From Minisyncoccia bacterium (lineage in GTDB: Bacteria > Patescibacteriota > Minisyncoccia > Phycocordibacterales > UBA9973), in assembly GCA_044229265.1 (NCBI GenBank), contig JBGATK010000001.1, positions 35,776 to 99,775 of the forward strand: DNA of 64,000 bases, in the 5' to 3' direction. A model generated the notes under the pieces. The model made no database searches. It saw nothing but the letters and a program-made list of their open reading frames with translations, and was not told the origin of the DNA. This document shows, piece after piece, positions 10,969 through 44,931 of the stretch (within the stretch, counting starts at the first letter, position 1; the number at the start of each line of letters is the position of its first letter). A program made the translations under genes and the position numbers.

Positions 10969-11713
10969 TTTCGGTATTGTTAATAATTTCTAAAAATTTC
11001 TTTGAATTCAAACTATCGCGACCAACTAAAAATCCATCTGCTTTGCCTTCAACCATAAAACCGACAGAATTTTCTGGATGAACTGAACCTCCGTAAATAA
11101 TACGGATACCTTCAATACTCTTTATTCCAAATTTATCACTCAAAATTCTTTTCATAAAAATACTAATTTCTAAAAATTCAGAAGGAGTAGCTTCTCGAAT
11201 AGCTTTTTCGCCTATAGCCCAGATTGGTTCATAAGCTATGATAATTTTATCTAAAGTGGTTTTTGAAACGCCAACAAGAGCAGATTCGATTTGTTCTTTT
11301 ATAAAGAACAAATATTTATGTTCATTATCACGAACACTTTCACCAACACAAAGTATAGGTATAAAACCATTGTAAACTGCATTTTTTATTTTTTTATTTA
11401 CATCAATATTACTCTCTCCCATTGCTCTCCTTTCAGAATGCCCTATTATGCTATAGCGAGCACCGATATCATAAAGCATACCTCCTCCTATTTCACCCGT
11501 AAAAGCTCCAGAATTTTCATAAAAAATATTTTGAATACCGAGAATTATACGCTTAGAAATTTTACGTAAAGCTTCTATGTAAATAGAAGGCGGACAAATT
11601 ACCACATCTACACCCTTCCATTTGCCTTTGCTAATTTGTTTAAAAATTTTTTCTGCCTCTTTTTTTGAGGTAGGATTTTCTTTCCAATTACCAATAACTA
11701 TTCTTTTAGACAT
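10955..11713 (-). CDS. tpiA: Triosephosphate isomerase
   Basis: IVIGNWKEN...IAYEPIWAIG...GGSV motifs. The true start is probably the internal Met (MSKRIVIGNWK), so the start is trimmed from 11731 to 11713. Confidence 0.85.
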   Translation of the reverse strand: MSKRIVIGNWKENPTSKKEAEKIFKQISKGKWKGVDVVICPPSIYIEALRKISKRIILGIQNIFYENSGAFTGEIGGGMLYDIGARYSIIGHSERRAMGESNIDVNKKIKNAVYNGFIPILCVGESVRDNEHKYLFFIKEQIESALVGVSKTTLDKIIIAYEPIWAIGEKAIREATPSEFLEISIFMKRILSDKFGIKSIEGIRIIYGGSVHPENSVGFMVEGKADGFLVGRDSLNSKKFLEIINNTENAKY

Positions 11714-11736
11714 GAGAATATTATAACACAAGAAAA

Positions 11737-13485
11737 TTATTCAGTTTCCTGCCAGCTCTCGACACTCCACCCACCCGAAGGCCCAGAAACGAAATTTGCA
11801 TTTATTAGACCCGAATCGAAAGTAATGACAGCATTATTATTTAAACTTATTTTATACCCATTTACCGATGTCGCTCCAGCATTATTGCTAACACTGACTG
11901 TACCATTCGCAGCATAAAGAACCACTGCTCCAGCATTATTACCAAGAGTTATTGCTGAAGTAGATGTAGATGTAGAAAGCGCCATTATATAACTACCTGC
12001 GGTGCCAGAGCCGTGAAAATCCGCATTATTGCCGACAGTTATAGTACCATCAGCTATAACTGCCCCTTCTCCTGATCCATAACCAGAAGATAGTCTTATA
12101 TCGACATTATTACTAAAAGAAATATTCCCTGTCACCCATAAAGTACCGGTAATAGTAAGGTCGCTATTGTTTTGAACAGTCAAATTCCCAACAATTTTTT
12201 TAGGTCCGAGTGAAGTAGTAGTGCTATCTATAGTCATATTACCTGTATATGTACCTCCGGCTAATGCTTCATCTTTCCAATCTAAAATATTTTGGTCAGA
12301 AATAGGCATCGCAATTGCTGCTGGATCAGCAAGTGATGTGTTGCACGATTTGTTATTTCCACTTCCCGTCTGGCAATAATTCGTGCCTGCGATAGTCGAA
12401 TTATTCACTGTATGAGCGTAAGCATTACCTACTCCACCAGAGCCGACAGTAATACCACTTATAAGCCCAGTGAGTCCTCCTAAATATAATTTGAAAAAGC
12501 CATCCAGCCCTCCCGGTGTAGTATTATTCCAAGTGCTACTATATTGACCTATTTTCCCAGTGCCACTACTATAACCATTTGCATTTGCACCTATATAATA
12601 ATATCTAGAAGAATTTGTTCCGCCATCAATAACTATCCAATACGTAGTACCAGCAGTAAGCTGTGGATTTGTGGACATTGGTACTGACACCCAGCCATAA
12701 GTTGTAGATATGAGCGATGCAGAAAGAGTACCAGAAGCCAGTGTAGTGGTGCTAGGTACGCCACTATTATCAGAAACAATTCGCACGGTTAGATTGCTAG
12801 GTGTGCTTACTTTTTTCAAATAAAGTTCAACCTTATTTACTACATCGGTAATGCTCGGCACAAAACTTTGCGCAAAATCTTGGGTACCATTTGCATTACC
12901 AAATTGCACATCATAAGCTGGTGTGCCGGAACCATTTGTCTGATCTGCGGTAAGAGCAGCAGAATTTGCAGATGTTGCAGATCCAGTAATACTACCAGAA
13001 CCTGTAATATTACCATTGGAATAAACACTACCTATAACACTAGAATTATTAGCCATAGTAAGACCGCCTTGACCCGACTGCACTCCATAATTAAAAGAAA
13101 TACCTGTACCTGCCTCTAAAATTATCTCATTTGCTCTATCTCTATTCCCGACATCACCAGCTGATGTAATTGTTTTTTGATTTCCCGCGTCGATAATATT
13201 TGTAGTAGCACTATAGCCATCTATATCTATAGTTTCTGTTGAGCCAATAGTTTTACCTGAATTAATTCTATAATATGCATCTTCGACGCCAGACTCTGAG
13301 AGATAGAACGATTTTTTAGCTTTTAATCCCGTATCAGCGAGCTTGTATTCAGAAACTGTTGGTGAAACCAAGCCCACAATCAAAGAAGCTGACAAAGCTG
13401 TAAAAAAAACTAGTGATACTATGAGAGCTTGACCCTTTTGATATTCATTATTATATTTATTTTTTGAAAAATTTTTTTTAAACAT
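11737..13485 (-). CDS. PilX-like minor or tip type IV pilus component (large G/S/T/N-rich secreted protein)
   Basis: 582 aa; N-terminus ...YQKGQALIVSLVFFTALSASLIVGLVS fits the PilX_N pattern (Q/R-G-x-ALIV...); last gene of the pilin block. Confidence 0.5.
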   Translation of the reverse strand: MFKKNFSKNKYNNEYQKGQALIVSLVFFTALSASLIVGLVSPTVSEYKLADTGLKAKKSFYLSESGVEDAYYRINSGKTIGSTETIDIDGYSATTNIIDAGNQKTITSAGDVGNRDRANEIILEAGTGISFNYGVQSGQGGLTMANNSSVIGSVYSNGNITGSGSITGSATSANSAALTADQTNGSGTPAYDVQFGNANGTQDFAQSFVPSITDVVNKVELYLKKVSTPSNLTVRIVSDNSGVPSTTTLASGTLSASLISTTYGWVSVPMSTNPQLTAGTTYWIVIDGGTNSSRYYYIGANANGYSSGTGKIGQYSSTWNNTTPGGLDGFFKLYLGGLTGLISGITVGSGGVGNAYAHTVNNSTIAGTNYCQTGSGNNKSCNTSLADPAAIAMPISDQNILDWKDEALAGGTYTGNMTIDSTTTSLGPKKIVGNLTVQNNSDLTITGTLWVTGNISFSNNVDIRLSSGYGSGEGAVIADGTITVGNNADFHGSGTAGSYIMALSTSTSTSAITLGNNAGAVVLYAANGTVSVSNNAGATSVNGYKISLNNNAVITFDSGLINANFVSGPSGGWSVESWQETE

Positions 13486-13497
13486 TTTAAATTTAAA

Positions 13498-13995
13498 TTA
13501 ATAACTACCACGTAAAACTACCGTGTCATAAAATGTAGCTGAATTTACACCGCCATAACGAGTAGAAGTAATAGTGAATTCTATTTTTACGGCTACACTA
13601 TTTGCTGTCGTAATTTGAGTAAAAGTAAGCCCGGAGACAGAAAGAGTGCTGGGATTTAAATTACCCACCAAAACATCATCTTCATAGAAAAGTAAATTAC
13701 TGCCTGAAAGTGTAAATTGTGAGCTATCACCAACTAGGGTGCCGTCTTCAATGCGAACTTTTAAATCAGTGCTGCTAATACTCACGATACTACTTGCCTC
13801 ACGAACTTCGCGAGCTATACGCTCCATAATATTTGCGCCTTCAGCTAATTCTATATTTATTTTTGCATTTCTGAAAGATTTAGTCAGAACTATAGTTGAT
13901 TGTATTATCAGCATTGAAAGCATTAAGAAAATAGCGATATAAAAAATCATTTCAAGTAGCGAGAATCCTTTTTTATTTTTTAAAAAATTTTTCAT
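13498..13995 (-). CDS. Prepilin-type pseudopilin (minor pilin)
   Basis: 165 aa; KKGFSLLEMIFYIAIFLMLS is a class III (prepilin peptidase) cleavage and methylation N-terminus. Confidence 0.7.
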   Translation of the reverse strand: MKNFLKNKKGFSLLEMIFYIAIFLMLSMLIIQSTIVLTKSFRNAKINIELAEGANIMERIAREVREASSIVSISSTDLKVRIEDGTLVGDSSQFTLSGSNLLFYEDDVLVGNLNPSTLSVSGLTFTQITTANSVAVKIEFTITSTRYGGVNSATFYDTVVLRGSY

Positions 13996-14002
13996 TTAAA
14001 TT

Positions 14003-14500
14003 TTAAAATAAATCCGTTATGTAAAATTTTATATTTTTCTCCATAACAGTAGTGCCTTCTGTCCAACCCACTGACACTGTTACTAATTTTGTTCCTGTAT
14101 CGAGTACTCCCCCAGAAGAAACTATATCCTGCGTAGACGCATCACGATACACATCAGAAAAAACAATCCTTCGAGTAAAAATACCTATAGTGGAAGGAGT
14201 TTGACTTACACTCCACGTTCCATTTGAAAATGAAGCATAGTAATAACTAAGTGCAGTTGGGCCAGAAATATTAGTCCAATTATTATCACGCAAAATCCGA
14301 ACTATTTCAGCTCCTTCTTCTAAAATTAAACTAGCTTGCATTTGATGAAGTGATCTACGAGAAACTTCTATTCCTTTTTGTGCTACTGCTGATGCAGAAA
14401 TAATAAGCATTACCAAAACAGCAGCGATTACCAAAAGTTCTACCATCATAAAACCTCCTTTATTTTGTTTTTTATTTTTTAAAAAATAAAACATAAACAT
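14003..14500 (-). CDS. Prepilin-type pseudopilin (minor pilin)
   Basis: 165 aa; KGGFMMVELLVIAAVLVMLII has a G|F processing site followed by a hydrophobic helix. Confidence 0.7.
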   Translation of the reverse strand: MFMFYFLKNKKQNKGGFMMVELLVIAAVLVMLIISASAVAQKGIEVSRRSLHQMQASLILEEGAEIVRILRDNNWTNISGPTALSYYYASFSNGTWSVSQTPSTIGIFTRRIVFSDVYRDASTQDIVSSGGVLDTGTKLVTVSVGWTEGTTVMEKNIKFYITDLF

Positions 14501-14961
14501 TAATTCACACTTATGTGGCCAGTTGGACTAATTGTAATTGTTTTTGTGTATGAATCTGCTGACAAAACAATAGTTCCATTTACATTTGGTGCACCATATA
14601 TTCTACTAAAATACACATCGGTAGCTCCGCCCGTTAAAGAAATAGTTGATATACTAGCAGGAGAAGAAATAGTTGTAATAATATTACTCCCTGCTAGAGC
14701 TGAATAAGTAGTCCCTTCAAAAATTATAACTTGATTATTTGCAAAATGCACACCGTACTCTTTGGAATCAAGAGAAGATATAGTATTTGTGCGAGCTTTA
14801 TTTATAGCTGAAAAAACATCAGCTGTAGAATTTTGCAAACTTTGCAGAGTACGGAAACTGCTAAATTTTGGAATTACCACCACAAGTAAAATGCCAATAA
14901 TAGCTACAACTATTAAAACTTCAATTAAATTTATACCCTTATTAAAATTATTTTTTTTCAT
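14500..14961 (-). CDS. Prepilin-type pseudopilin, GspH/FimT-like
   Basis: 153 aa; KGINLIEVLIVVAIIGILLVVVIPKF matches the GspH/FimT N-terminal consensus. Confidence 0.7.
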   Translation of the reverse strand: MKKNNFNKGINLIEVLIVVAIIGILLVVVIPKFSSFRTLQSLQNSTADVFSAINKARTNTISSLDSKEYGVHFANNQVIIFEGTTYSALAGSNIITTISSPASISTISLTGGATDVYFSRIYGAPNVNGTIVLSADSYTKTITISPTGHISVN

Positions 14962-14968
14962 AATTTAA

Positions 14969-16180
14969 TTAACCTATATTATTTAGAACAGAATAAAGTG
15001 GAGTTATCATAGACAATGCAAAAAAACCAACTCCTGTTCCAATTAAAATCATCAAAATTGGCTCAATAATAGTGGAGAGATTTTTAGTTTTATTTTCAAT
15101 TTCATTTTCATAAAAAATAGCAATTTCTGTGAGCATATCAGCTAATTTACCTGTTTCTTCGCCAACTTGAACCATCTCGGTCATCATAATAGGGTAAAGT
15201 TTTGGATTATCTTCAAAAACTTTTGCAAAAGGTGCTCCTTTTTCTACGGATTTTACTGCATCCTCCATGACTTTTTTATAATAAACATTTTGCACAACAT
15301 CACGAGTAATCTCTATGGCCCGTGTTATAGACACACCAGATAAAATAAGTGAAGAAAGAGTGCGCGCTGTCCGAGCAGTATTGAGCTCGCGTGCCATTGT
15401 ACCAAAAACTGGTAATTTTAAAACTACAAAATCTATATATTTTTGACTAGCTTTTGCAGTAAAAAGAAAATATAATCCTACTCCAAATAAAATTGCTCCT
15501 AGTAAAGTAAGTATTAAATTATTTGATATGAAATCACCAAGCCAAAGCACAAAACGTGTAGTTGGAGGTAATTTTACGCCAAGTTCTTTGAAAGTATTAG
15601 CCAGTGTAGGAACCACGAAAGCAAACATTAATATACCTATTATTACCATAGCGGAAATAATTACCCCTGGGTACATCATCGCGCCTTTAATTTTTTTTGT
15701 AAGAGAATTAGATTTTTCTAAATTCATGCCTATCTCAGTAAGAGCTCCAGCTAAATTACCGGACTCTTCCCCAGCACGAACCATGGAAACAAAAAGTGGC
15801 GAAAAAGCTTTTGGTTTTTTAGCGAGCCCACTCGATAATGTTCCGCCATTATTAATTTCATCGATAAGACTAGCAATTATTTTTTTAAAAAACTCTTTTG
15901 GAGTTTGTTTTTCTAAAACCGAAAGAGCTCTACCTGCTGACAAGCCAGCTTTTAACATGCCTGCTAAATTTTTGGTAAATAAAATTAAATCCTGCATTTT
16001 CACCCCACCAAAAATGCCATCAAAAGAAATATTCCAAGAATTCTTTTTTTGTTCTTCAATTAGAATTGGTATTGAACCTTTTTCTCTAAAATCACGGGCC
16101 ACTGCAAAGCGATCCACAGCTTCTGTAGTGCCTTCTATTATATTTCCCTCTTTATTTTTTATTTTATATTTAAAAAGCAT
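14969..16180 (-). CDS. pilC: Type IV pilus assembly platform protein PilC (GspF family)
   Basis: 403 aa; two repeated GspF domains with three transmembrane segments; N-terminus MLFKYKIKNKEGNIIEG... as in PilC. Confidence 0.9.
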   Translation of the reverse strand: MLFKYKIKNKEGNIIEGTTEAVDRFAVARDFREKGSIPILIEEQKKNSWNISFDGIFGGVKMQDLILFTKNLAGMLKAGLSAGRALSVLEKQTPKEFFKKIIASLIDEINNGGTLSSGLAKKPKAFSPLFVSMVRAGEESGNLAGALTEIGMNLEKSNSLTKKIKGAMMYPGVIISAMVIIGILMFAFVVPTLANTFKELGVKLPPTTRFVLWLGDFISNNLILTLLGAILFGVGLYFLFTAKASQKYIDFVVLKLPVFGTMARELNTARTARTLSSLILSGVSITRAIEITRDVVQNVYYKKVMEDAVKSVEKGAPFAKVFEDNPKLYPIMMTEMVQVGEETGKLADMLTEIAIFYENEIENKTKNLSTIIEPILMILIGTGVGFFALSMITPLYSVLNNIG

Positions 16181-16189
16181 TATATAAAT

Positions 16190-17941
16190 TTACTCAGAAA
16201 CCACTCTAAATACTTCTTCTACGCTAGTATTCCCTAGTGCTGCTTGAAAAATACCATCTTCTATCATGGTCATCATTCCTTCTTTTTTTGCTTGAGCTTC
16301 AATATCGTCTTGTGAAGCACCTTTTAAAACTAATTCCTTGATAGCACCTGAAACCTTTAATACTTCATGAATACCTACACGGCTTTTATAGCCATCTTCC
16401 GATTCAGCACTTTTTACTGGCCGATAAAATGCTACTTTATCCCAACTATCATCTTTGCCAATAATATTTTCAGCTTTTAAAAAACCTAACATTCTATCTA
16501 AATCTACAATTTTAGCTAAATTTGCTAATTCGTCTTTATTCATAAAATATTTTTCTTTTGATGAAGTTAAACGTCGTACAAGACGCTGAGCAATAATAGT
16601 TTTCACAGTAGAAATAATCAGAAATGGCAATGCGCCCATATCTATCATACGAGGAACAGCACCAGCAGCTGAATTAGTGTGAATTGTAGAAAGCACTAAG
16701 TGTCCAGTAAGTGAAGCATTAATAGCAAGAGATACAGTTTCCCCATCACGAATTTCCCCTACCATTACGATATCAGGGTCCTGACGAAGAAGTGCACGTA
16801 GTCCTTGTGCAAAAGTTAAACCTATTTCTGGTTTTACTTGTGTTTGATTTACTCTTGGCATTTGATATTCCACTGGGTCTTCTACCGTAGAAATATTTAC
16901 ATCTGGCTTATTTAACATATCGAGCATAGTGTAAAGCGTAGTAGTTTTACCCGAACCGGTAGGGCCAGTAGCTAGTATCATACCTGTTTTTTGTTTCATG
17001 GATTCATAAATTTTCTCTAATCCTTCACCATGAAAACCTAATCCTTCCAACGAGAAACCATGAGAATTTTCTTTTAAAAGACGAATCACAGTTTTTTCAC
17101 CGAAAAATGTAGGTAGTGTAGAAACACGAAAAGAAACTTTTTCACCATTTTGTTCTATTTTAAAACGACCATCTTGTGGGAGTCTTTTTTCATCAAGCTT
17201 TAAATTCGACAATACTTTTATGCGTGCAGTTATGCCTGGTGCTGCACTTTTATCGAGTGTCATGGCATCATGCAAAATACCATCAATACGGTAGCGCACT
17301 ACTAATTTTTCTTCACCTGGTTCTATGTGAATATCAGAAGCATTTTGCAAAATAGCATGAAAAACTAATGAATCCACGATCTTAACTACAGGCAAATCTT
17401 CAGCCATTTCTTTTAATTCTTGCGCTGATTTTTCTCCTCCACCCTCATCGTTCTTTAATTTTAAAGAATTTGATTCTTCTTGAATAATATTTGAAAATTC
17501 TGCTTGTAAACTTTTGCGATATTGCACAAGAGCACTTTTTATAGATGCACTATCTGTGAGGCGTGGTAAAATTTTGAGCCCGGAACGCTTTTTAATAAAA
17601 TCAATAACAGGCAAATCGTCCACGTCGAGCATAGCTACTTCTAATTCTTTTTCTGTTTTTTTATAACCAATAATATTATAATTTCGAGCAATTGGCTCTG
17701 GGATAAGTGAAAGTATAGCTATATCTATTTTTTCTTTTTCCAAAGAAACAAAAGGTATACCTAGAACATGGGCTTCTATTTTGCGAAGCTCTGTTTCTTT
17801 TAATTTATTTTGAATAAGAAGAGTATCAGAAAGGGTTTGCCCTTTTTCACTCGCAATTTTTGCCATATCATTTAAATCCGATTCTGAAATTAATTTACTA
17901 TCAAGTAAAAATTTCTTGAGTTGTTTTTCATCTATCTCCAT
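16190..17941 (-). CDS. pilB: Type IV pilus assembly ATPase PilB (GspE family)
   Basis: 583 aa; GspE_N-like N-terminus, Walker A GPTGSGKTTTLYTML, Asp and His boxes. Confidence 0.9.
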   Translation of the reverse strand: MEIDEKQLKKFLLDSKLISESDLNDMAKIASEKGQTLSDTLLIQNKLKETELRKIEAHVLGIPFVSLEKEKIDIAILSLIPEPIARNYNIIGYKKTEKELEVAMLDVDDLPVIDFIKKRSGLKILPRLTDSASIKSALVQYRKSLQAEFSNIIQEESNSLKLKNDEGGGEKSAQELKEMAEDLPVVKIVDSLVFHAILQNASDIHIEPGEEKLVVRYRIDGILHDAMTLDKSAAPGITARIKVLSNLKLDEKRLPQDGRFKIEQNGEKVSFRVSTLPTFFGEKTVIRLLKENSHGFSLEGLGFHGEGLEKIYESMKQKTGMILATGPTGSGKTTTLYTMLDMLNKPDVNISTVEDPVEYQMPRVNQTQVKPEIGLTFAQGLRALLRQDPDIVMVGEIRDGETVSLAINASLTGHLVLSTIHTNSAAGAVPRMIDMGALPFLIISTVKTIIAQRLVRRLTSSKEKYFMNKDELANLAKIVDLDRMLGFLKAENIIGKDDSWDKVAFYRPVKSAESEDGYKSRVGIHEVLKVSGAIKELVLKGASQDDIEAQAKKEGMMTMIEDGIFQAALGNTSVEEVFRVVSE

Positions 17942-17954
17942 TACTATAATTATA

Positions 17955-17985
17955 ACAAAAAATTCCCCATACAGGGGAATTTTTT
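17955..17985 (-). terminator. Intrinsic terminator between the surface-protein operon and pilB
   Basis: Hairpin attccccatacaggggaat flanked by an A-run and a T-run. On the minus strand a TATAAT lies just downstream, about 7 nt from the pilB ATG. Confidence 0.55.
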
Positions 17986-18002
17986 GTTAATTATTTTTAT
18001 TT

Positions 18003-20309
18003 TTAATATAAAGTTCGCCAAGCATATGTATTTGCAGCATCTTTGGCGCATACTTCTACATTATCTTTTACACCTGTAGCACCCTGTACCACAAAAAACA
18101 TACCCCGAACACTGGCTGTGCATGATGGTTTAGCAGAATTATTATTATTTACGATAACTCCTCCATTAAAAGTATTTTGTGTTATTGCTGTATTACCAAA
18201 AACCATAGAATTACTTGCACTGACTATAGCTCCATTACCAATTGCTGTAGCATTAGTTAAACCACCAGTAGAAACATCCGCACTATAACCAATAGCTGTA
18301 TTGTTTGTTCCAGTAGTATTTGTTAGTAAGGAAAAATAACCAAAAGCTGTGTTATTTGAACCTGTTGTTGCATTTAAAGAACCATTACCAAATGCAGAAT
18401 TATTATTACCAGCAGTATTTAATTGCAAAGCACCTTTTCCAAAAGCACTATTTCTATCGCCATCTAAATTATTTAAAAGAGCTTGATATCCAAAAGCGGA
18501 ATTTTCGAAACCACCTGTATTTACAGCAAGAGCAGTAGAACCCACAGCTGTATTTCTATACCCTACAGTATTGTCTCTAAGAGCCCATTGTCCAAAACCA
18601 GAGTTAGCATCACCTGTAGTATTTGATTGTAAAACTTGATATCCAACAGCAGTATTATTTGCCAATCCAGAATTATTTCCACCGAGAGCATTAATACCTA
18701 CAGCCAAATTTGTTCCTAATTGGTTAGTGCCTTTACCTACAATTACACTACTGATAGATATATTACCCGAAGTATCTACTCTCATTCTCTCAACCCCACT
18801 CGTAGTTATTGCAAAAATATCAGCTCCTGGAGAAAATGTTCCCGTATTTGTATCACCTAAAAATGTCCGAGTTGGAGCACTTGCTGTGCCTAGTGTGGTA
18901 GCTACTGCTCCAGCCACTTCAAACTTTGAAACAAAAGTAGTTCCTACAGGTTGCCCCACACCAACACTTCCATTAACTGGATTTATTACGACATCTCCTT
19001 TCAAAGAACCATTGCTTGTAGAATCTAAAATTAAATCTCCATTTGCAGTAGAATTTCCATTTATTGTAAAACCAGCCATTTGCAATGCTTGTGTAGCTGT
19101 ATGATTTCCTAAATTATCAGCACCGCCACATGTTTGCCATTCAAAAGTTGCACCTGTAGTTTCGTAAGTTAAACAAAATTCATCAGTAGCAGTACCAGAA
19201 ATACTAACCTTTGATACAGTAACAGCGCCATTTAATATTTTTGTATTTGAAACAGCATTAACTGCTATTTTGGGATCATCTACAGCAAGAGCTGCTATTT
19301 TTCCATTGGTTATAGACAAAGCATCGACAGTCCAAACTGTGCCAGTACCAGAAACAGTAATGTCTCCTTTATCACCATCTGTAATACCACCATTAGCTGT
19401 AAAAGTAATATTACTATTATTTACATCATGAGTAATGGTAATTCCTGAACCGGCTATCAAACCTTTATATTCCAAACTAAGACCAGTATCATCTAAACCT
19501 AGAACCTTATTAGCACCTCCAAAAACTGCAGCTATATCAGTTTTAGATACACCATCAACAGCTATTTTGTCGCTAGTTATAGAATCTGCAGCTAATTCTG
19601 TATTACCAACCACTCCTGCATCTATATTCCAAACACTACCACTAGAGGAAACAGTGATGTCGCCTTTGTCGCCATCTGTTAGAGAATTTAACACTTGCCA
19701 AGATCCGTCGCCTCGCAAATAATTTGTAACGCCAGGAGTGCCTGTAATAGCAGATGAAAATAATGGTATTCTATTTGTATTAATTTCTTGCACAGGACCA
19801 GCTGAATTACCTAAATTCGCTAAAAATCTATTAGCTCCAACATTTTGAATTTTTGAATAGGTAACAGCCAAAGGATCTATAGTCCAAGTAGCTCCACTAC
19901 CAGAAACAGTAATGTCGCCTTTATCACCATCGGAAACACCTCCGGAACTAACATCCCAAGTTAAATTACCTGCACCATCAGTTTTTAAATATCCATTTGC
20001 AGTTTGGTTTGCAGGAAAAGTATATGTTTCTGTATTTAGAGTAAGTGTTTTGCCTGGAAAGATAGTTACATTACCTTTTAAATCTGAAGTTCCGTCTACT
20101 ACTAATACTGTACCAGAGCGTAGTCCACTCCATGCTACTATTCCTCCGTCTTTTGCTTGAGTAGTGGAGCTTGTGTTTATTGGGGGTTCGGTGTTGCCAA
20201 GAGGTGGAATACCGGACGGTGGAACCCAAGTAGCAAAAGCTTGTAAGCTTATACTAAAAAGTGATATCGCTAAAAATGATTTAAGAAAAATTTTCTTTTT
20301 TAAAGACAT
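18003..20309 (-). CDS. Large secreted surface protein with internal repeats (DGDKGDITVSGSG..WTID three times); paralogue of the next gene
   Basis: 768 aa; signal peptide ...SLQAFA|TWVPP; the N-terminal ~130 aa are near-identical to the 20348-22021 product; G/N/T/S-rich beta-solenoid-like composition. Confidence 0.7.
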   Translation of the reverse strand: MSLKKKIFLKSFLAISLFSISLQAFATWVPPSGIPPLGNTEPPINTSSTTQAKDGGIVAWSGLRSGTVLVVDGTSDLKGNVTIFPGKTLTLNTETYTFPANQTANGYLKTDGAGNLTWDVSSGGVSDGDKGDITVSGSGATWTIDPLAVTYSKIQNVGANRFLANLGNSAGPVQEINTNRIPLFSSAITGTPGVTNYLRGDGSWQVLNSLTDGDKGDITVSSSGSVWNIDAGVVGNTELAADSITSDKIAVDGVSKTDIAAVFGGANKVLGLDDTGLSLEYKGLIAGSGITITHDVNNSNITFTANGGITDGDKGDITVSGTGTVWTVDALSITNGKIAALAVDDPKIAVNAVSNTKILNGAVTVSKVSISGTATDEFCLTYETTGATFEWQTCGGADNLGNHTATQALQMAGFTINGNSTANGDLILDSTSNGSLKGDVVINPVNGSVGVGQPVGTTFVSKFEVAGAVATTLGTASAPTRTFLGDTNTGTFSPGADIFAITTSGVERMRVDTSGNISISSVIVGKGTNQLGTNLAVGINALGGNNSGLANNTAVGYQVLQSNTTGDANSGFGQWALRDNTVGYRNTAVGSTALAVNTGGFENSAFGYQALLNNLDGDRNSAFGKGALQLNTAGNNNSAFGNGSLNATTGSNNTAFGYFSLLTNTTGTNNTAIGYSADVSTGGLTNATAIGNGAIVSASNSMVFGNTAITQNTFNGGVIVNNNNSAKPSCTASVRGMFFVVQGATGVKDNVEVCAKDAANTYAWRTLY
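19874..20198. repeat. ~325-bp near-identical tract, copy 1 (within the 5' part of the 768-aa gene)
   Basis: Matches 21583-21907 with about 4 mismatches when read directly. The ORF track shows identical 82-aa shadow ORFs in both places. Confidence 0.85.
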
Positions 20310-20347
20310 ATAAATATTATAACAATAAAAAACTACTAACGAAAGAT

Positions 20348-22021
20348 TTATTTTATCTTTGCTTCGAGGATTTCTAAACGCCTACGCAAATCTTCATTTT
20401 CTTTTTTTAGTTCATTAATTTGAGCTTCATGTTTTTGAGTTTCTTTAAGTAGCAATACTGACAACATTGGATATTTAACAGAATCTGGGATTAGTAAATC
20501 TCTTGTGCTACCGGCAATTACATTCTTCTCTGGAATATAGTCCACCAAAGCAGGCACAACTTTATCTACATCTTCGGCTATAAGACCAAAATACCTAAGT
20601 CCATCACTTTTTGAAGTATAAGAAACTGGTTTCAAATCATAAATTTTTGAAGTATCTATTTCTAAATCCGCGACATCTTTTTTATATCTTATAGAAGAAG
20701 TTGAGCGAAGTAATTTACTAGTACCTGTATCATAATACGCATTTGCAGCATTTGCTGTCGTTCCAATACTTCCAAATGAAGGATTGGTTAGTGTTTTCCC
20801 CGATAGAGTTTGAGTGCCTGTTGTATCTACTGGGGTAAAAGTAGTCCACCCTGTACCTGAATTAACTCTACGTAAAGCATCATTATTACCAGGGCATTTC
20901 TCTACAAGAATACCTGTAGTTTCGGCAGCCAACATACAACCTCCGGTGACGCTTGATACTCCAGTACCTCCTTTACCTACAGGTAAAATACCCGCAACCT
21001 CAGTCGTAGCTAGGTCAACTTGAGCTGTAGTTCCACCACCAGTAGCAAATATGTAATTATTAGCAGTTATAACACCAGCACCAGTTGGACCCAACGTACC
21101 TGAGGTCAGTAGTGCTACTGTATTTGTACCTGTTGTAACACTCGCAAATGATACTGACCCTCCACCTCCAGATGTTCCACAAGAAAAAGTATTTGTAGCA
21201 ATAACATAATTTAAATGATTTCCTCCAGAATCAGGACAATTTAAAAGTGCTTTTGCTTCCCAAGCAGAACCATTTGAAACAAGTAGGGTATCGTCAACAG
21301 CACTTGAAAGGCCTGTGCCACCTTTGGCAAAAGGCACGACATTGTTATAAGTAGTAGAGAGTCCGGTAGAAGTAACGTCCCCAGTTAAGTTTCCCATAGT
21401 AGGTGTTCCCCAAGTATTATCGCCTCGCAAAAAAGTAGTAGAATCTTTTGTGCCAGTAGCTGAGAGCTTTGTAGTCGCTACTATAGTAGCATCAGTAATT
21501 TTTATATTAGTTATTGCATTGTCTGCAATTTTTGAATTTCCTACTGCATTGTCTACAATCTTTCCTGTTGTAATAGTAAGTGGGTCTATAGTCCAAGTAG
21601 CTCCACTGCCAGTAACAGTAATGTCGCCTTTATCACCATCAGAAACACCTCCGGAACTAACATCCCAAGTTAAATTTCCTGCACCATCAGTTTTTAAATA
21701 TCCATTTGCAGTTTGGTTTGCAGGAAAAGTATATGTTTCTGTATTTAGAGTAAGTGTTTTGCCTGGAAAGATAGTTACATTACCTTTTAAATCTGAAGTT
21801 CCGTCTACTACTAATACTGTACCAGAGCGTAGTCCACTCCATGCTACTATTCCTCCGTCTTTTGCTTGAGTAGTGGAGCTTGTGTTTATTGGGGGTTCGG
21901 TGTTGCCTCCTGTTGGAGGAGTGCCTATTGGAGGCACCCACACTGCAAATGCTTGCAAAGCTATTGCAAAGGCTGTGAGGACGAAAACAGATTGAAGAAA
22001 AATTTTTGTTTTATAAGTCAT
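20348..22021 (-). CDS. Tail-fibre-like surface protein with a C-terminal intramolecular chaperone auto-processing (peptidase S74-like) domain
   Basis: 557 aa; signal peptide ...LQAFA|VWVPP; C-terminus RSTSSIRYKKDVADLEIDTSKIYDLKPVSYTSKSDGLRYFGLIAEDVDKVVPALV...YPMLSVLLLKETQKHEAQINELKKENEDLRRRLEILE matches the endosialidase/tail-fibre chaperone domain pattern. Confidence 0.7.
   Translation of the reverse strand: MTYKTKIFLQSVFVLTAFAIALQAFAVWVPPIGTPPTGGNTEPPINTSSTTQAKDGGIVAWSGLRSGTVLVVDGTSDLKGNVTIFPGKTLTLNTETYTFPANQTANGYLKTDGAGNLTWDVSSGGVSDGDKGDITVTGSGATWTIDPLTITTGKIVDNAVGNSKIADNAITNIKITDATIVATTKLSATGTKDSTTFLRGDNTWGTPTMGNLTGDVTSTGLSTTYNNVVPFAKGGTGLSSAVDDTLLVSNGSAWEAKALLNCPDSGGNHLNYVIATNTFSCGTSGGGGSVSFASVTTGTNTVALLTSGTLGPTGAGVITANNYIFATGGGTTAQVDLATTEVAGILPVGKGGTGVSSVTGGCMLAAETTGILVEKCPGNNDALRRVNSGTGWTTFTPVDTTGTQTLSGKTLTNPSFGSIGTTANAANAYYDTGTSKLLRSTSSIRYKKDVADLEIDTSKIYDLKPVSYTSKSDGLRYFGLIAEDVDKVVPALVDYIPEKNVIAGSTRDLLIPDSVKYPMLSVLLLKETQKHEAQINELKKENEDLRRRLEILEAKIK
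21583..21907. repeat. ~325-bp near-identical tract, copy 2 (within the 5' part of the 557-aa gene)
   Basis: See copy 1. Confidence 0.85.
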
Positions 22022-22044
22022 AATTTTTTACTAAATAATAATAA

Positions 22045-23604
22045 TTAATTTTCTTTGTATTTTCTAGTTTGTTTACCAGAACTAGGATTAATATCTAAGG
22101 TTGTGGAATAAATTTGGTTTGAATTACCTGTGCAAGTAATAGTAAATTTATTATTACCTGCTGGAACATCGATATTAACCTCTTCGTGTGAACCATCAGA
22201 ACTGTCTTTAGGATTTGGTGTTTGCCACGAAGGATTGTTTGGCGCGGAAGTAGGGACACAAGAATTTGCCTGCATTCCAAGCACTGTCCATTTGAGCGTG
22301 GTTTTATTTCCCACAACTTTTGTATTAGAAAATGTAAGTTGCTCATTGAAACCCTTATTCACAAAAACAGGCTGGGCATTCACTGGCACTCCCCCATCAA
22401 AACATTGCAAATCAAAACGAACTGGGGCACTGATGTTTGCAATAGAATAATCGTATTTTGTTTGAGTAGTTGTATTTGAAGTAAAAGGACTTACCTTCCA
22501 ATCTGCCTGTGAATTTCCGAAAGAATCAGTAGTGTGTGCTATACAGCCTGTAAGCGGAGCATCAGAATACCAAGTAAGGTCAACATCAAAAGGTGAATAT
22601 GATACAAAGCTATCTGGAGCAAGGAATAATCGTATACCTACGTGAACTACTACACGTTCTACTACAGACCAAATAGTGCCAGTAGTGTCTAGACATTTTA
22701 TTTCATATATATAATCTCCTTTAGTATTCAAAATACCTGTATTAAAAGTGCCACTTGGTGAATTTTTTTCTGGCACTGGATTTATCCATGCTCCTGTATC
22801 CTGTGAACCTGCACCTTGGCTAGCCAAACATCCAGTAGGACTATTTATTAAATTAAGACCATCCCAAAATATTGTAGTTTGACCACCTTGAGGGATATAA
22901 ATATCTTGCGCTGAAATTGTAACCATGGGTTCATTGATAGGATCATAAAAAACATTTGAAAAATCTAACCAACCTACGACTTGTTCATCGTGAATACCTG
23001 AGCCATCATTTCCACCAAAGGCATAACCACCAAAAGTTTTTAAATTAGCATCATAACTGACACCATAGCCAGTGCCACGAAGAGAAAGCCATCCATCCCA
23101 ACCCCCATTTGAAGCATTTTTACCAGCATTGCCAGTACAAAGAGAAGGGACAGCTGAAGGCGAACAAAAACGAGCCCAGCCTCGAACTTCATTTCCGACT
23201 ACTTGGGCATTTTGAGTATAAGTTCCAAAACCAGTAGGCATTTCACTAGTATTTAATCCTCCGAATTTTACCCAACCATAGTGAGCTGAATAAGCATAAC
23301 CTTCTAAATAACCAGTATTTGGATCGAAATTTACACCATAATTTGAATCACTACATCCATTATGAGAGACACAATTAAAAGAAAGCCATTCTGTTCCACC
23401 TCTGACTAAACCATAGCCAAAATCACCTTCATCCATACCCCAAGCTGCACCCTGCAAACTATCTAGAGTGCTACCTTTGACTAAATTATTTGAAAAAGAG
23501 AATAAAAATCCAAAAACAACTACAATTACTAAAAACTTGATTGCTTTTACATGATCAAATTTAATCAAACTAACTTTTTTAAATATTTTTTTAAAAATTT
23601 GCAT
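22045..23604 (-). CDS. Secreted hypothetical protein (N-terminal anchor, Gly/Trp/Cys-rich)
   Basis: 519 aa ORF with an N-terminal hydrophobic segment; no recognisable family. Confidence 0.5.
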   Translation of the reverse strand: MQIFKKIFKKVSLIKFDHVKAIKFLVIVVVFGFLFSFSNNLVKGSTLDSLQGAAWGMDEGDFGYGLVRGGTEWLSFNCVSHNGCSDSNYGVNFDPNTGYLEGYAYSAHYGWVKFGGLNTSEMPTGFGTYTQNAQVVGNEVRGWARFCSPSAVPSLCTGNAGKNASNGGWDGWLSLRGTGYGVSYDANLKTFGGYAFGGNDGSGIHDEQVVGWLDFSNVFYDPINEPMVTISAQDIYIPQGGQTTIFWDGLNLINSPTGCLASQGAGSQDTGAWINPVPEKNSPSGTFNTGILNTKGDYIYEIKCLDTTGTIWSVVERVVVHVGIRLFLAPDSFVSYSPFDVDLTWYSDAPLTGCIAHTTDSFGNSQADWKVSPFTSNTTTQTKYDYSIANISAPVRFDLQCFDGGVPVNAQPVFVNKGFNEQLTFSNTKVVGNKTTLKWTVLGMQANSCVPTSAPNNPSWQTPNPKDSSDGSHEEVNIDVPAGNNKFTITCTGNSNQIYSTTLDINPSSGKQTRKYKEN

Positions 23605-23607
23605 AAT

Positions 23608-23913
23608 TTACTGTGTAATATTTAGTAGATCTTGCTTGGAATCTGTTTCATTTCTAGTGTATATATCTTTAGGAGGTGCGACTCTATTCAAATCTTTCTT
23701 CGCTTCAACATCAGATTTTAAATCTGCTGGAGGCTGAAAAGAATTCAAAGTTTCAAGACTTTTCGCATTTTTTTCTTCTTGAGTAAGCTCGGTATTCGGC
23801 ACAACTTGTTCAATCCTAGGAGCAGAATCTTTCTTGATTAAGAAATAAAAAATACCGGCAATTAACAAAACTACTAAAATGCCTACAAAAATAAAAATTT
23901 TTTGTTTTGCCAT
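23608..23913 (-). CDS. Small membrane-anchored hypothetical protein
   Basis: 101 aa; single N-terminal transmembrane segment (IFIFVGILVVLLIAGIFYFLI); first gene of the minus-strand surface-protein operon. Confidence 0.45.
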   Translation of the reverse strand: MAKQKIFIFVGILVVLLIAGIFYFLIKKDSAPRIEQVVPNTELTQEEKNAKSLETLNSFQPPADLKSDVEAKKDLNRVAPPKDIYTRNETDSKQDLLNITQ

Positions 23914-24017
23914 ACAAATATATTATATAAAATAAACGCTATAAAATTTAACTTATATGTGGATAACTAAAAAGTATTTGCCTTTTAGTTTTAAATTTGA
24001 TATTATATGCATATTAA

Positions 24018-44040: not shown

Positions 44041-44931
44041 ATGTACAATAACATAGAGAATCCAAATTCCAACAAACAAGTAAGTAGCCAAGTAATGGAA
44101 TCGACAGAAATAGATTTAGATGAAATAAAAATATCTAAATTAAAATCACAAAAGGAAGACATTTTAAATTCAAATAATTTTTCATCTAAGAAAGAAATCT
44201 TGGGTGGCAATATTGGTGACGCAACTTTTGTATCCATAGAAGGTGACGGTAATGGAGTATTTAAACCACACACTAAATATAATTATGACCCAGAAAGAAA
44301 AATGAATTTTATCAATAGCGAGCGAGCAGCATATTTATTTAGTCAGTTTTTAGGTTTTGACATTGTTCCACTCACAATAGTAAAAAATGTAGAATATCGA
44401 AATACTGAGGATAATGATAATGATGTCATCACCCAAATAGGAAGCTTGCAAGAATTTATAGAAAATGCCGAGGAAGGTCGTGAATGCAACATAGCCGAAA
44501 TTCCTAAATTAGAAATTTTAAAACTTCATATTTTTGATATTATTATTGCCAACGACGATAGGCATGGAGCAAATTTTTTAATTAAAAACAATAAAATTTA
44601 TGCTATTGATAACGGATTAGCCCTAAAAAAAACAGACCTTCTTGATATAAATATTGAAAGTAATAGACCGTTAGTAAATAATGACTACTTAATAAAAATT
44701 TCACAAAATGATGAATTACCTGCTGAAATTACTAATAAAATAAAAGAATTACTAAAATGGGAAAATGGTGTAAAAATTTTAAAGCAACAAATAGAAGAGT
44801 TATTAGGGAAAGAAGTAGCAGAAATATCTATAGAAAGATTAAAAATCTTATCAGATTGCATCAATGAAGAAAATAAATTTGACATAAATAATTTTAAACA
44901 ATCAATTCGTGAATTAAAAAGGAAGTCTTAA
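44041..44931 (+). CDS. PI3/PI4-kinase-like atypical kinase domain protein
   Basis: 296 aa; IFDIIIANDDRHGANFLIKNNKIYAIDNGLAL reproduces the catalytic-loop DRHxxN and the activation-loop IDNG(L) spacing typical of type II PI4-kinase-like catalytic domains. Confidence 0.5.
   Translation: MYNNIENPNSNKQVSSQVMESTEIDLDEIKISKLKSQKEDILNSNNFSSKKEILGGNIGDATFVSIEGDGNGVFKPHTKYNYDPERKMNFINSERAAYLFSQFLGFDIVPLTIVKNVEYRNTEDNDNDVITQIGSLQEFIENAEEGRECNIAEIPKLEILKLHIFDIIIANDDRHGANFLIKNNKIYAIDNGLALKKTDLLDINIESNRPLVNNDYLIKISQNDELPAEITNKIKELLKWENGVKILKQQIEELLGKEVAEISIERLKILSDCINEENKFDINNFKQSIRELKRKS

What the first reader, a model, noticed from the sequence alone, without database searches (positions are those of the whole stretch)
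11737..23913. Surface-protein operon feeding into a compact type IV pilus module
A 12-kb minus-strand array begins with an operon of four genes: a small membrane protein, a 519-aa secreted protein and two large paralogous surface proteins. An intrinsic terminator at 17955-17985 separates that operon from what follows. Next come pilB and pilC, three prepilin-type pseudopilins and a PilX-like protein. Transcription then continues into tpiA and pgk. No pilM/N/O/Q, pilT or prepilin peptidase is in the window. The architecture suggests a pilus with dedicated large tip or surface adhesins. Reading it as an attachment apparatus is inference.
Basis: partly seen in the sequence, partly recalled or inferred. 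Interest (0 to 1): 0.6.

Follow-up and report, generated by a model that had tools for sequence, protein, structure and literature searches.

The report
Phage-fibre-like adhesin cassette beside pilus genes
An ultra-small, probably host-attached bacterium of the Patescibacteria (CPR) group carries swappable surface fibres built like phage tail fibres, together with a dedicated anchor-like protein, right next to a minimal type IV pilus operon, which makes this locus a good candidate for how such uncultivated bacteria recognise their hosts.

Summary
The 12-kb minus-strand array holds a 101-aa membrane protein, a 519-aa protein and two paralogous large proteins (557 and 768 aa). A strong hairpin terminator follows, then pilB, pilC, three class-III-signal pilins, a 582-aa PilX/GspK-type pilin, tpiA and pgk.

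The new findings are:
- The two large proteins are phage-tail-fibre-like. The 557-aa one ends in an S74 self-cleaving chaperone domain.
- Both carry a Sec signal and a shared N-terminal module. A roughly 330-nt tract encoding it is nearly identical between the two genes.
- The closest known analogue is the Bdellovibrio MAT fibre family.
- In about 80 related Patescibacteria loci this N-module occurs only next to relatives of the 519-aa protein, which has an N-terminal membrane helix and an Ig-like stalk. That protein is the likeliest docking partner.
- PilB follows the cassette in 14 of 27 informative loci, including rearranged, divergent ones. In five loci the pilus block is missing.
- A conserved terminator followed by a -10 promoter box separates the two units.

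The best reading is two separately transcribed host-attachment modules that cooperate. Fibres mounted on the pilus remain possible but unsupported. I rate this a new variant of a known kind, of moderate to high interest.

The parts
23608..23913 (-). 101-aa single-pass membrane protein, first gene of the fibre cassette. It has an N-terminal TM helix and a low-complexity C-terminal tail.
   Evidence: ORF. No family hit. Orthologues of 61-63% identity sit at the same position in L002 and L003, and one of 35% in L016. Small ORFs of 95-104 aa occupy the same position in L004 and L005. A TATAAT lies 8 nt upstream of its ATG.
22045..23604 (-). 519-aa protein ('sec519'): N-terminal membrane helix or signal anchor, a Trp/Gly-rich beta domain (about residues 50-220), then three Ig/FN3-like domains. 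It is the proposed cell-surface dock for the fibres.
20348..22021 (-). 557-aa secreted fibre: Sec signal (…LQAFA|VW), conserved N-module (to about residue 145), Gly/Thr-rich shaft, then a C-terminal Peptidase_S74 intramolecular chaperone with S442-x4-K447 and a terminal coiled coil.
   Evidence: Pfam Peptidase_S74 8.1e-9, 36.1 bits against a cutoff of 22. PHROG tail-fibre families down to 1.9e-11. SSIRYK motif at residue 442. In the AF2 model residues 440-557 mostly have pLDDT above 90 and the rest is low. The top five Foldseek hits are 3GW6 but not significant. Viral contig matches cover only residues 132-556.
18003..20309 (-). 768-aa secreted fibre without S74: same Sec signal type and N-module, three [ST]DGDKGDITV repeats, an 'NTAxG..AL' repeat region (about 500-720) and a small Cys-containing C-terminal knob.
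   Evidence: PHROG virion structural and tail spike families 5e-26 to 1e-10. Repeats at residues 126, 211 and 310. Nine viral contigs match residues 374-750 at 35-71% identity, and several of those phage proteins end in S74.
21570..21869 (-). DNA tract encoding the shared N-module in the 557-aa gene. Its twin lies at 19861-20160 in the 768-aa gene.
   Evidence: 300-nt direct repeat at 97% identity. Sliding identity is 100% from nt +120 to +330 and at least 93% up to +420, against about 50-60% on both sides, including the signal-peptide codons. This is the signature of recent gene conversion.
19861..20160 (-). Second copy of the N-module DNA tract, in the 768-aa gene.
17953..17989 (.). Palindromic intrinsic terminator (A-tract, 16-bp stem, T-tract) that ends the fibre cassette.
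   Evidence: Folding energy -22.8 kcal/mol. An equivalent hairpin follows the last fibre gene in L001, L005, L006, L010, L012, L014 and L016.
17949..17957 (-). Extended -10 element TGTTATAAT, with TATAAT ending 7 nt before the pilB ATG. It is the proposed promoter of the pilus operon, possibly giving a leaderless mRNA.
   Evidence: Sequence read. The same TATAAT plus 6-7 nt plus ATG arrangement is seen in L001, L005, L006, L012, L014 and L016, and before tpiA in L010. Promoter function is inferred.
16190..17941 (-). PilB-type assembly ATPase (583 aa) with an N-terminal MshEN domain.
   Evidence: Pfam T2SSE 1.2e-121 and MshEN 3e-11. NCBIfam PilB 515 bits and GspE 505 bits, both below the equivalog cutoffs.
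14969..16180 (-). PilC/GspF-type platform protein (403 aa).
   Evidence: Pfam T2SSF 2.8e-55, two repeats. NCBIfam GspF 305 bits and PilC 283 bits.
14500..14961 (-). 153-aa prepilin (G|INLIE) with a GspH/FimU-like domain. It is either a minor pilin or the filament subunit.
   Evidence: Pfam GspH 2.3e-4 (22.1 bits, cutoff 21) and N_methyl. TIGR02532 passes its cutoff. Motif conserved in orthologues.
14003..14500 (-). 165-aa prepilin (GG|FMMVE).
   Evidence: Motif scan. Orthologues keep G|F-x3-E. No family model hit.
13498..13995 (-). 165-aa prepilin (KG|FSLLE).
   Evidence: Pfam N_methyl 1.4e-5. Weak ComGE/ComGF-type hits. Motif conserved.
11737..13485 (-). 582-aa PilX/GspK-type large pilin. The N-terminus KG|QALIVSLVFF lacks Glu5. 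It also has a 'choice-of-anchor R' domain (192-323) and a C-terminal beta-helix-like repeat region. It is the candidate pilus-tip adhesin.
   Evidence: NCBIfam choice_anch_R 4.1e-9, 36.6 bits against a cutoff of 30. DUF5649 repeats are weak. The N-terminal G|Q…/no-Glu5/…SESG(V/I)(E/D)xA motif is conserved in L001, L012 and L089. Pfam PilX_N is not detected.
9904..11731 (-). tpiA and pgk, co-directional with the 582-aa gene and within a few bases of it. No terminator lies between.
   Evidence: ORFs. No minus-strand terminator lies in the junction. Pfam TIM and PGK hit the L001 orthologues. In L010 the terminator plus promoter sits directly before tpiA.

Best explanation
The region holds two adjacent, separately transcribed surface modules of a Patescibacteria (CPR) cell. 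Together they probably form its host-attachment equipment.

Module 1 (23913-18003) is a fibre cassette. It encodes a small membrane protein, a membrane-anchored protein with an Ig-like stalk (519 aa), and two fibres built like phage receptor-binding proteins. The proposed steps are as follows.
- The fibres are exported by Sec.
- They trimerise outside the membrane.
- The 557-aa fibre then removes its C-terminal S74 chaperone by Ser442/Lys447 autoproteolysis.
- The shared N-terminal module, kept identical between the two genes by gene conversion, fixes each fibre to the cell surface. The 519-aa protein is the most likely dock.
- The variable, recombining distal parts bind structures on the host cell.

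Module 2 (17941-11737) is a minimal type IV pilus or pseudopilus operon with its own promoter. It contains PilB, PilC, three pilins with class III signals, and a large PilX/GspK-type pilin whose bulky head is the likely pilus-tip adhesin. It depends on a prepilin peptidase, and perhaps a major pilin, encoded elsewhere.

What is shown: the domain identities, the shared N-module, the strict pairing of that module with relatives of the 519-aa protein, the recurrent but optional adjacency to pilB, and the conserved terminator with a -10 box behind it.

What is inferred: surface location, trimerisation, docking on the 519-aa protein, host binding, and cooperation with the pilus (long-range tether by the pilus, close adhesion by the fibres).
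For: Domain identities:
- Peptidase_S74, PHROG tail-fibre and tail-spike families, T2SSE, T2SSF, N_methyl, GspH and choice_anch_R.
- The S-x4-K dyad at residue 442.
- A confident AF2 S74 domain.

Shared N-module:
- 71% identity over 206 aa between the paralogues, about 100% over residues 40-145.
- A roughly 330-nt tract of near-identical DNA flanked by about 55% identity.
- The signature A-x-W-x2-P-x3-P-P-x2-N-x3-P-[IV]-N-x5-Q-x-K-x-G across 16 fibres from 12 loci.
- HMM hits fall only in cassette ORFs. None were found elsewhere in about 330 kb of flanks, in the rest of the window, or in 12 viral loci.

Tip shuffling: the L001 fibre is 768-like over residues 1-675 but ends in S74, while its upstream neighbour ends in the 768-type knob.

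Pairing with the 519-aa family: 17 of 20 genome loci, plus divergent metagenome loci with and without pilB.

Link to the pilus: pilB lies within 10 kb downstream in 14 of 27 informative loci. These include L020, L059, L062 and L075 (PilB 56-69% identical); in L059, L062 and L075 no NusA gene lies in the sequence upstream, whereas L020 still has it.

Separate transcription: terminator plus TGnTATAAT, 7 nt before the ATG, in seven loci.

Precedents:
- Bdellovibrio MAT fibres have a signal peptide, a conserved ~130-aa N-domain, and S74 or other tips. They lie on the predator surface and bind prey glycans (PMC10769870).
- In Saccharibacteria TM7x, type IV pili and the large pilin PilX2 contribute to host binding (PMC12206443).
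Against: - There is no direct evidence that the fibres are cell-bound, trimeric or host-binding.
- The monomer AF2 model of the 557-aa protein is poor outside the S74 domain (pLDDT 60). Its Foldseek hits are not significant.
- The docking role of the 519-aa protein rests only on gene neighbourhood. Its domains also occur in thousands of other multidomain proteins, so the pairing could reflect a shared regulon rather than binding.
- General gene order in this clade is very conserved (RNase Y, ClpP, trigger factor, pyrophosphatase and NusA all syntenic). Part of the pilB adjacency may therefore be inherited rather than selected.
- Five informative loci have tpiA and no pilB after the cassette. 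Eight more distant ones show neither.
- The host of this organism is unknown.
Confidence: 0.5

Rival explanations
1. The fibres are carried by the pilus itself. Their N-module binds the minor-pilin tip complex (153/165/165/582-aa proteins), so the pilus presents exchangeable large tip adhesins.
For: The cassette lies directly upstream of pilB in 14 of 27 informative loci, including divergent, rearranged ones. The operon encodes a set of pilins in the FimU-PilV-PilW-PilX order, and no obvious separate major pilin is in the window. The MAT paper itself raises a possible interplay of fibres with type IV pili.
Against: The fibres have Sec signals, not class III signals. The N-module tracks relatives of the 519-aa protein even where pilB is absent (L010, L043/44, L049, L088, L063, L070, L078, L086). 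A conserved terminator and own promoter separate the units. The 582-aa pilin already supplies a large head domain.
Confidence: 0.15
2. Secretion reading. The PilB/PilC/pseudopilin set works like a type II secretion piston without a secretin. It pushes the Sec-exported, folded fibres, and perhaps the 519-aa protein, through the wall or S-layer. The neighbouring cassette would then encode its cargo.
For: GspE and GspF models score about as well as PilB and PilC models (505 vs 515 bits; 305 vs 283 bits). The first pilin hits GspH. The last pilin lacks Glu5, as GspK does. The proposed cargo has Sec signals, as type II substrates do. No retraction ATPase and no clear major pilin are in the operon. 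Saccharibacteria have been said to possess a T2SS-like system (PMC10633639).
Against: Type II secretion through a monoderm-type envelope has no established precedent (own knowledge). The cassette exists without the pilus block in several genomes. In cultivated Saccharibacteria the homologous machines make real pili seen by cryo-ET.
Confidence: 0.1
3. Neighbours by descent only. The fibres are an independent surface coat or adhesin set, and their position next to the pilus operon has no functional meaning.
For: Gene order is strongly conserved across the whole clade. A terminator and own promoter lie between the units. The pilus block is cleanly absent in L010, L043/44, L049 and L088. Pairs of a 519-aa relative and an N-module fibre occur in other contexts.
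Against: The adjacency survives in loci where the other flank has changed and PilB is only 62-69% identical (L059, L062, L075). That is hard to get by chance for one gene among several hundred.
Confidence: 0.22
4. Remnant of a prophage or a tailocin whose tail-fibre genes were left behind.
For: There are PHROG tail fibre, tail spike and virion protein hits and an S74 domain. Viral contigs carry relatives of the distal fibre parts at 24-48% identity.
Against: No other phage gene is nearby. The 101-aa and 519-aa proteins have no PHROG hit. The fibres carry Sec signals. The cassette sits at the same chromosomal site in dozens of genomes. The N-module is absent from the 12 viral loci fetched.
Confidence: 0.03

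Closest known systems
Mosaic adhesive trimer (MAT) fibres of Bdellovibrio bacteriovorus (Caulton et al. 2024, PMC10769870)
   Same: Chromosomal, non-phage genes for large secreted fibres. Each has a signal peptide, a conserved N-terminal domain shared by all paralogues, a phage-like shaft, and exchangeable tips. Some end in an S74 chaperone (SDxxxK) and some do not. The organism lives by attaching to other bacteria. The authors also propose that the N-domain binds an unidentified surface element.
   Different: - The envelope here is probably monoderm-type in a Patescibacteria cell, not a diderm predator.
- There are only 1-3 fibres, clustered in one cassette, rather than 21 scattered genes.
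- There is a constant partner gene (the 519-aa family) and frequent adjacency to pilB.
- The fibres are shorter.
- Homology of the N-module to the MAT N-domain could not be tested here.
- Patescibacteria are not among the lineages listed in that paper's Table S3.
Phage tail fibres and tailspikes with a C-terminal intramolecular chaperone (K1F endosialidase 3GW6; T5 L-shaped tail fibre pb1)
   Same: An S74 domain with the Ser-Lys dyad, repeat-rich Gly/Thr shafts, DGDKGDITV-type (DUF5907-like) repeats, and mosaic exchange of distal parts.
   Different: The N-terminus is a Sec signal plus a cell-specific module instead of a virion-attachment domain. No other virion genes are present. The chromosomal position is fixed.
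Type IVa pilus minor-pilin/PilY1 tip complexes, and PilX2 of Nanosynbacter lyticus TM7x (PMC12206443)
   Same: Several small pilins are followed by one large pilin with a non-canonical signal (no Glu5) and an expanded C-terminal domain. In TM7x, deleting such a pilin reduces host binding about as much as deleting the major pilin or pilB2.
   Different: The head of the 582-aa protein is a choice-of-anchor-R / beta-helix-like domain, not a beta-propeller. No pilM/N/O, pilT or pilD lies in this locus. The major pilin is unidentified.
ComG competence pseudopilus operon of Firmicutes, and type II secretion pseudopili
   Same: Compact gene order of ATPase, platform, then a run of pilins, with the peptidase elsewhere and no retraction ATPase or alignment proteins in the operon. 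There are weak ComGC/E/F and GspG/H hits.
   Different: The ATPase is PilB-like with an MshEN domain (515 bits, against 251 for ComGA). The last pilin is very large. No com DNA-uptake genes are adjacent.

Membership tests
MAT (mosaic adhesive trimer) fibre superfamily | N-terminal signal peptide | tested here: met
   Both fibres and all 16 aligned relatives have a Lys-rich n-region, a hydrophobic core of about 15 aa, and an A-x-A|x-W site. No signal-peptide predictor was available.
MAT (mosaic adhesive trimer) fibre superfamily | Conserved beta-rich domain of about 130 aa directly after the signal peptide, shared by all paralogues | tested here: inconclusive
   A shared N-module of about 110-120 aa exists. 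Four strands at residues 89-120 are modelled at pLDDT 71-79. Homology to the Bdellovibrio N-domain could not be tested because no MAT N-terminal sequence was obtainable here.
MAT (mosaic adhesive trimer) fibre superfamily | Tip is either an S74 chaperone with SDxxxK or another adhesive domain | tested here: met
   The 557-aa protein has Peptidase_S74 at 8e-9 with S442-SIRY-K447. The 768-aa protein has no S74 and a different C-terminal knob. Cassette relatives have canonical SDxRxK.
MAT (mosaic adhesive trimer) fibre superfamily | Intertwined trimeric beta-helix or beta-prism shaft; surface location; prey or host binding | not testable with these tools
   Only monomer prediction was available, and the shaft modelled at pLDDT below 50.
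Peptidase_S74 (intramolecular chaperone autocleavage domain) | Domain match above the curated cutoff, plus the catalytic Ser and Lys five residues apart | tested here: met
   36.1 bits against a cutoff of 22. S442 and K447 are present. The AF2 domain mostly has pLDDT above 90. The top Foldseek hits are 3GW6 but with E>1. Cleavage itself was not tested.
Type IV pilus (T4aP-like) system | PilB-type assembly ATPase and PilC-type platform | tested here: met
   T2SSE 1e-121, T2SSF 3e-55. NCBIfam scores are below the equivalog cutoffs for PilB, GspE, PilC and GspF alike, so the subtype is not resolved.
Type IV pilus (T4aP-like) system | Pilins with a class III signal (G|F/I-x3-E plus a hydrophobic helix) | tested here: met
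   Three genes carry it. N_methyl or TIGR02532 passes for two of them. The motif is conserved in orthologues.
Type IV pilus (T4aP-like) system | Prepilin peptidase, PilM/N/O alignment proteins, PilT retraction ATPase, identifiable major pilin | tested here: not met
   None is in the 64-kb window. The rest of the genome (the source contig is 155 kb) could not be read, so absence from the organism is not shown.
PilX (Pfam PilX_N, PF14341) | Match to the PilX N-terminal model | tested here: not met
   No Pfam hit for residues 1-130 of the 582-aa protein or its L001 orthologue, even at E<=10. The resemblance is limited to the G|Q-hydrophobic start without Glu5, the ...SESG(V/I)(E/D)xA motif, and the gene position.
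Prophage or tailocin | Other virion or tail genes next to the fibre genes | tested here: not met
   No PHROG hit for the 101-aa and 519-aa proteins. The flanks are NusA on one side and pilB on the other. The site is conserved across genomes.

The most novel reading that the evidence does not exclude
This cassette is the host-range determinant of a large group of uncultivated Patescibacteria. On this reading it is a cell-borne equivalent of a phage receptor-binding apparatus. The Ig-stalk protein acts as a fixed socket. The gene-converted N-module is the plug. Fibre tips are swapped by recombination, some of them with phages. The whole is genetically coupled to the type IV pilus that brings the cell to its host.
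Probability: 0.3. Interest if true: 0.75.

Novelty: new variant of a known kind. Interest (0 to 1): 0.58.

Why it matters
How CPR/Patescibacteria episymbionts find and choose hosts is largely unknown outside a few cultivated Saccharibacteria. There, type IV pili and unnamed adhesins have been implicated.

This locus offers a concrete, sequence-defined candidate for most-uncultivated Paceibacteria-type lineages. It encodes fibres whose tips look like phage receptor-binding domains. The constant N-module and the partner gene make them easy to find in metagenomes.

The fibre tips could be expressed and used as probes to fish out the unknown hosts. Tip turnover could be read as a record of host switching.

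The finding also extends the Bdellovibrio MAT idea, in which a bacterium uses phage-style fibres to hold other bacteria. The extension is to an unrelated phylum with a different cell envelope, and it comes with a candidate for the still-unidentified surface anchor.

Tried and rejected
- Homologue search with only the first 105 residues of the 557-aa protein returned nothing.
- The search for related loci with the N-module alignment A2 failed because no stretch was conserved enough. I used an HMM of A2 on the fetched loci instead.
- The afdb50 fold library was unavailable.
- Sequence search of PDB with the 557-, 768- and 582-aa proteins gave no hits. The 519-aa family profile gave only marginal gp130 FN3 hits.
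- The apparent strain difference between L005 and L006 was rejected as evidence of hypervariability. They share an identical 563-aa protein but appear to have different fibre genes. However, L006 has a run of N (seen as X in translation) inside the fibre region, so the difference is an assembly gap or collapse.
- The prophage reading was rejected (and synteny).
- A weak similarity between the N-module motif (PINTSSTTQAKDGG) and the N-terminus of phage proteins carrying T4_gp9_10_N (INTGTSANAGDG…) was noted. Most of that alignment score comes from the DGDKGDITV repeats, so I make no claim from it.
- Literature searches for tail-fibre-like, S74 or MAT proteins in Patescibacteria found nothing in the held library. 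That is absence from that library only.

Full report
**Observation.** In transcription order these are:
- a 101-aa membrane protein (23913-23608);
- a 519-aa protein (23604-22045);
- a 557-aa protein (22021-20348);
- a 768-aa protein (20309-18003);
- a 16-bp-stem palindromic hairpin with flanking A and T tracts at 17953-17989 (-22.8 kcal/mol);
- PilB (17941-16190; T2SSE 1e-121 plus MshEN) and PilC (16180-14969; T2SSF 3e-55);
- three small proteins of 153, 165 and 165 aa with G|INLIE, G|FMMVE and G|FSLLE class III signals (N_methyl/TIGR02532 and GspH hits);
- a 582-aa protein (13485-11737);
- tpiA and pgk.

A motif scan finds no further pilin in the window. Inspection and Pfam scans of the other ORFs find no PilD, PilT, PilM/N/O or secretin.

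**Organism.** The window's proteins are in NCBI on a 155-kb contig without names. Relatives found with the 519-aa family come from metagenome-assembled Patescibacteria. Their records are labelled Ca. Nomurabacteria, Ca. Paceibacterota or 'Patescibacteria group'. One automated series labels them Ca. Saccharibacteria. The low GC content (about 0.31-0.39 across most 2-kb windows) fits this placement.

**The fibre cassette.**
- The 557-aa protein ends in a Peptidase_S74 intramolecular chaperone domain (8e-9, above cutoff). It keeps the Ser-x4-Lys pair (S442, K447) and is followed by a coiled coil. This is the only part that AlphaFold models with high confidence.
- The 768-aa protein lacks S74. It matches PHROG virion, tail-spike and tail-fibre families (5e-26 to 1e-10). 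It also matches nine viral contigs over residues 374-750 at 35-71% identity, and several of those phage proteins themselves end in S74.
- Both proteins start with an ordinary Sec-type signal (…A-x-A|x-W).
- The two are paralogous only at the N-terminus: 71% identity over 206 aa, essentially 100% over residues 40-145.
- At the DNA level, a tract of about 330 nt is 93-100% identical, while both flanks, including the signal-peptide codons, are about 50-60% identical. This pattern points to recent gene conversion, not mere common descent.

**The 519-aa protein.** It has no family annotation. Its model (pLDDT 68) shows an N-terminal membrane helix, a Trp/Gly-rich beta domain and three Ig/FN3-like domains. 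The closest solved folds are tandem Ig arrays, with the intimin and invasin stalks at the top.

**Comparative genomics.** The full-length 519-aa family is small (15 hits). Its domains recur in thousands of larger proteins (6582 representatives at E<=1e-3).

I used the family alignment to fetch 15 genome loci and 60 metagenome loci. Six more loci came from exact-protein look-ups. I mapped the window's proteins and an HMM of the fibre N-module onto all of them. The results are:

1. The N-module has the signature A-x-W-x2-P-x3-P-P-x2-N-x3-P-[IV]-N-x5-Q-x-K-x-G after a conserved signal peptide. It heads 1-3 large genes directly beside the 519-aa homologue in 17 of 20 genome-derived loci. It is found nowhere else in about 330 kb of flanks, in the rest of the window, or in 12 viral loci.
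2. The distal parts of these genes differ completely in length (337 to 2682 aa) and content, with or without S74. Between the window and its closest relative L001 (PilB 89% identical), the tips are shuffled. L001's pilB-proximal fibre is 768-like to residue 675 but ends in S74. Its upstream neighbour ends in the 768-type knob.
3. PilB follows within 10 kb in 14 of 27 informative loci.
   - These include L020, L059, L062 and L075. PilB there is only 56-69% identical. In L059, L062 and L075 no NusA gene lies in the sequence upstream; L020 keeps it.
   - In L010, L043/L044, L049 and L088, tpiA follows with no pilus block.
   - Several more distant pairs of a 519-aa relative and an N-module fibre sit in unrelated contexts.
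4. After the last fibre gene there is always the same kind of A-tract, GC-stem, T-tract hairpin. It is followed by TATAAT, in most loci with a preceding TG (TGnTATAAT), ending 6-7 nt before the ATG of pilB, or of tpiA in L010. The two units are therefore insulated, and the pilus operon has its own, possibly leaderless, start.
5. Overall gene order in the clade is very conserved. This weakens simple synteny arguments.

**The pilus module.**
- The order ATPase, platform, GspH/FimU-like pilin, two further pilins and a large last pilin resembles both the FimU-PilV-PilW-PilX set of type IVa pili and the ComG or type II pseudopilus operons.
- GspE/GspF models score about as well as PilB/PilC models, and none reaches an equivalog cutoff.
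- The 582-aa protein begins KG|QALIVSLVFF, without Glu5, as tip subunits such as GspK and PilX do (own knowledge). It keeps this, and a following …SESG(V/I)(E/D)xA motif, in orthologues.
- The 582-aa protein also carries a choice-of-anchor-R domain (4e-9) and beta-helix-like repeats.
- Pfam PilX_N does not detect it, so 'PilX-like' describes its likely role, not its family membership.
- In Nanosynbacter TM7x, a large pilin with a non-canonical signal (PilX2) is the proposed adhesin of the host-binding pilus (PMC12206443). The 582-aa protein is the natural counterpart.

**Mechanism.** I propose two cooperating but separately expressed attachment modules.
- The fibres are exported by Sec, trimerise, and shed the chaperone in the S74 case.
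- They are held at the cell surface through the shared N-module, most likely on the Ig-stalk protein encoded next to them.
- Their variable tips bind host surface structures.
- The pilus, tipped by the 582-aa pilin, provides reach.

I give this reading a confidence of 0.5. Three rivals remain open, listed here with my confidence in each; the evidence for and against each is given under rival explanations:
- the fibres are mounted on the pilus tip (0.15);
- the pseudopilus acts as a secretin-less piston that exports the fibres (0.10);
- the adjacency has no functional meaning (0.22).

A prophage or tailocin remnant is essentially excluded (0.03).

**Comparison with what is known.**
- The closest system is the Bdellovibrio MAT fibre superfamily. 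MAT fibres have a signal peptide, a conserved ~130-aa N-domain in all 21 paralogues, and a trimeric phage-like shaft.
- MAT tips are either S74 (SDxxxK) or non-S74. The fibres lie on the predator surface and bind prey glycans, and the anchor for the N-domain is still unknown (PMC10769870).
- That paper lists MAT-like proteins from Oligoflexia, PVC, Alpha- and Deltaproteobacteria, FCB and Omnitrophica, but not from Patescibacteria.
- Searches of the held literature found no description of S74, tail-fibre-like or MAT-like proteins in Patescibacteria.
- What is new here is the lineage, the cassette organisation with a constant partner gene, the gene-converted plug module, and the recurrent link to pilB.
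- Homology of the N-module to the MAT N-domain could not be tested.

**Verdict.** The pilus module itself is ordinary for Patescibacteria. The fibre cassette is a new variant of a known kind and a practical handle on host recognition in uncultivated episymbionts. Interest: 0.58.

Noticed in passing
window 611-4003 (-): A 1130-aa Cys-rich protein carries a Dockerin_1 domain (909-956) and a Por_Secre_tail T9SS C-terminal sorting domain (1057-1127; 27.9 bits against a cutoff of 27). It lies in what otherwise looks like a Patescibacteria genome, where no T9SS is expected. Horizontal transfer from Bacteroidota, or a chimeric or mis-joined contig end, are both possible.
   Followed up: no
window 17949-17957 and 23917-23945; L001, L005, L006, L010, L012, L014, L016 intergenic regions: TATAAT, often as TGnTATAAT, ends 6-8 nt before the ATG of the first gene of a transcription unit (pilB, tpiA in L010, and the 101-aa gene). 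No Shine-Dalgarno sequence is evident. This suggests leaderless mRNAs in this lineage.
   Followed up: partly
window 51085-59191: A cluster of large secreted or wall-acting proteins: a LysM plus Peptidase_M23 protein (51085-52236, -), a 693-aa protein with Amidase_2 (54115-56196, +), and 563-aa and 984-aa proteins that are Lys/Glu-rich and mostly unannotated. These may be tools for attacking a host cell wall.
   Followed up: no
window 44041-44931 (+): A 296-aa protein with a PI3_PI4_kinase-like domain (3e-7), which is unusual for a bacterium with a reduced genome.
   Followed up: no
L010 11267-15120; also L043, L044, L049, L088: In these relatives the last fibre gene is followed by the same terminator and -10 box, and then directly by tpiA-pgk. 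The whole pilB-to-582-aa block therefore behaves as one insertion/deletion unit placed between a promoter and tpiA.
   Followed up: partly
L006 about 11715-15405, compared with L005: Two scaffolds encode an identical 563-aa homologue of the 519-aa protein but show different fibre genes. L006 contains a run of N inside the fibre region, so paralogous fibre genes appear to collapse or break assemblies. Fibre cassettes may be systematically mis-assembled in metagenomes.
   Followed up: partly
window 21400-21890 (residues 45-207 of the 557-aa protein); P0065, P0072, P0074, P0089, P0105: This stretch aligns at about 40% identity with the extreme N-termini of phage-like proteins that carry T4_gp9_10_N (INTGTSANAGDG…LRAG against PINTSSTTQAKDGG…LRSG). 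This hints that part of the N-module derives from a phage fibre or baseplate attachment domain. Most of the score comes from the DGDKGDITV repeats.
   Followed up: partly
L004 11569-19617; L014 11569-17754: In some relatives the cassette holds a single giant fibre (2682 aa and 2061 aa) instead of two or three shorter ones. In L004 the deposited gene calls break this region into small ORFs with gaps, whereas my ORF scan reads it as one frame.
   Followed up: no
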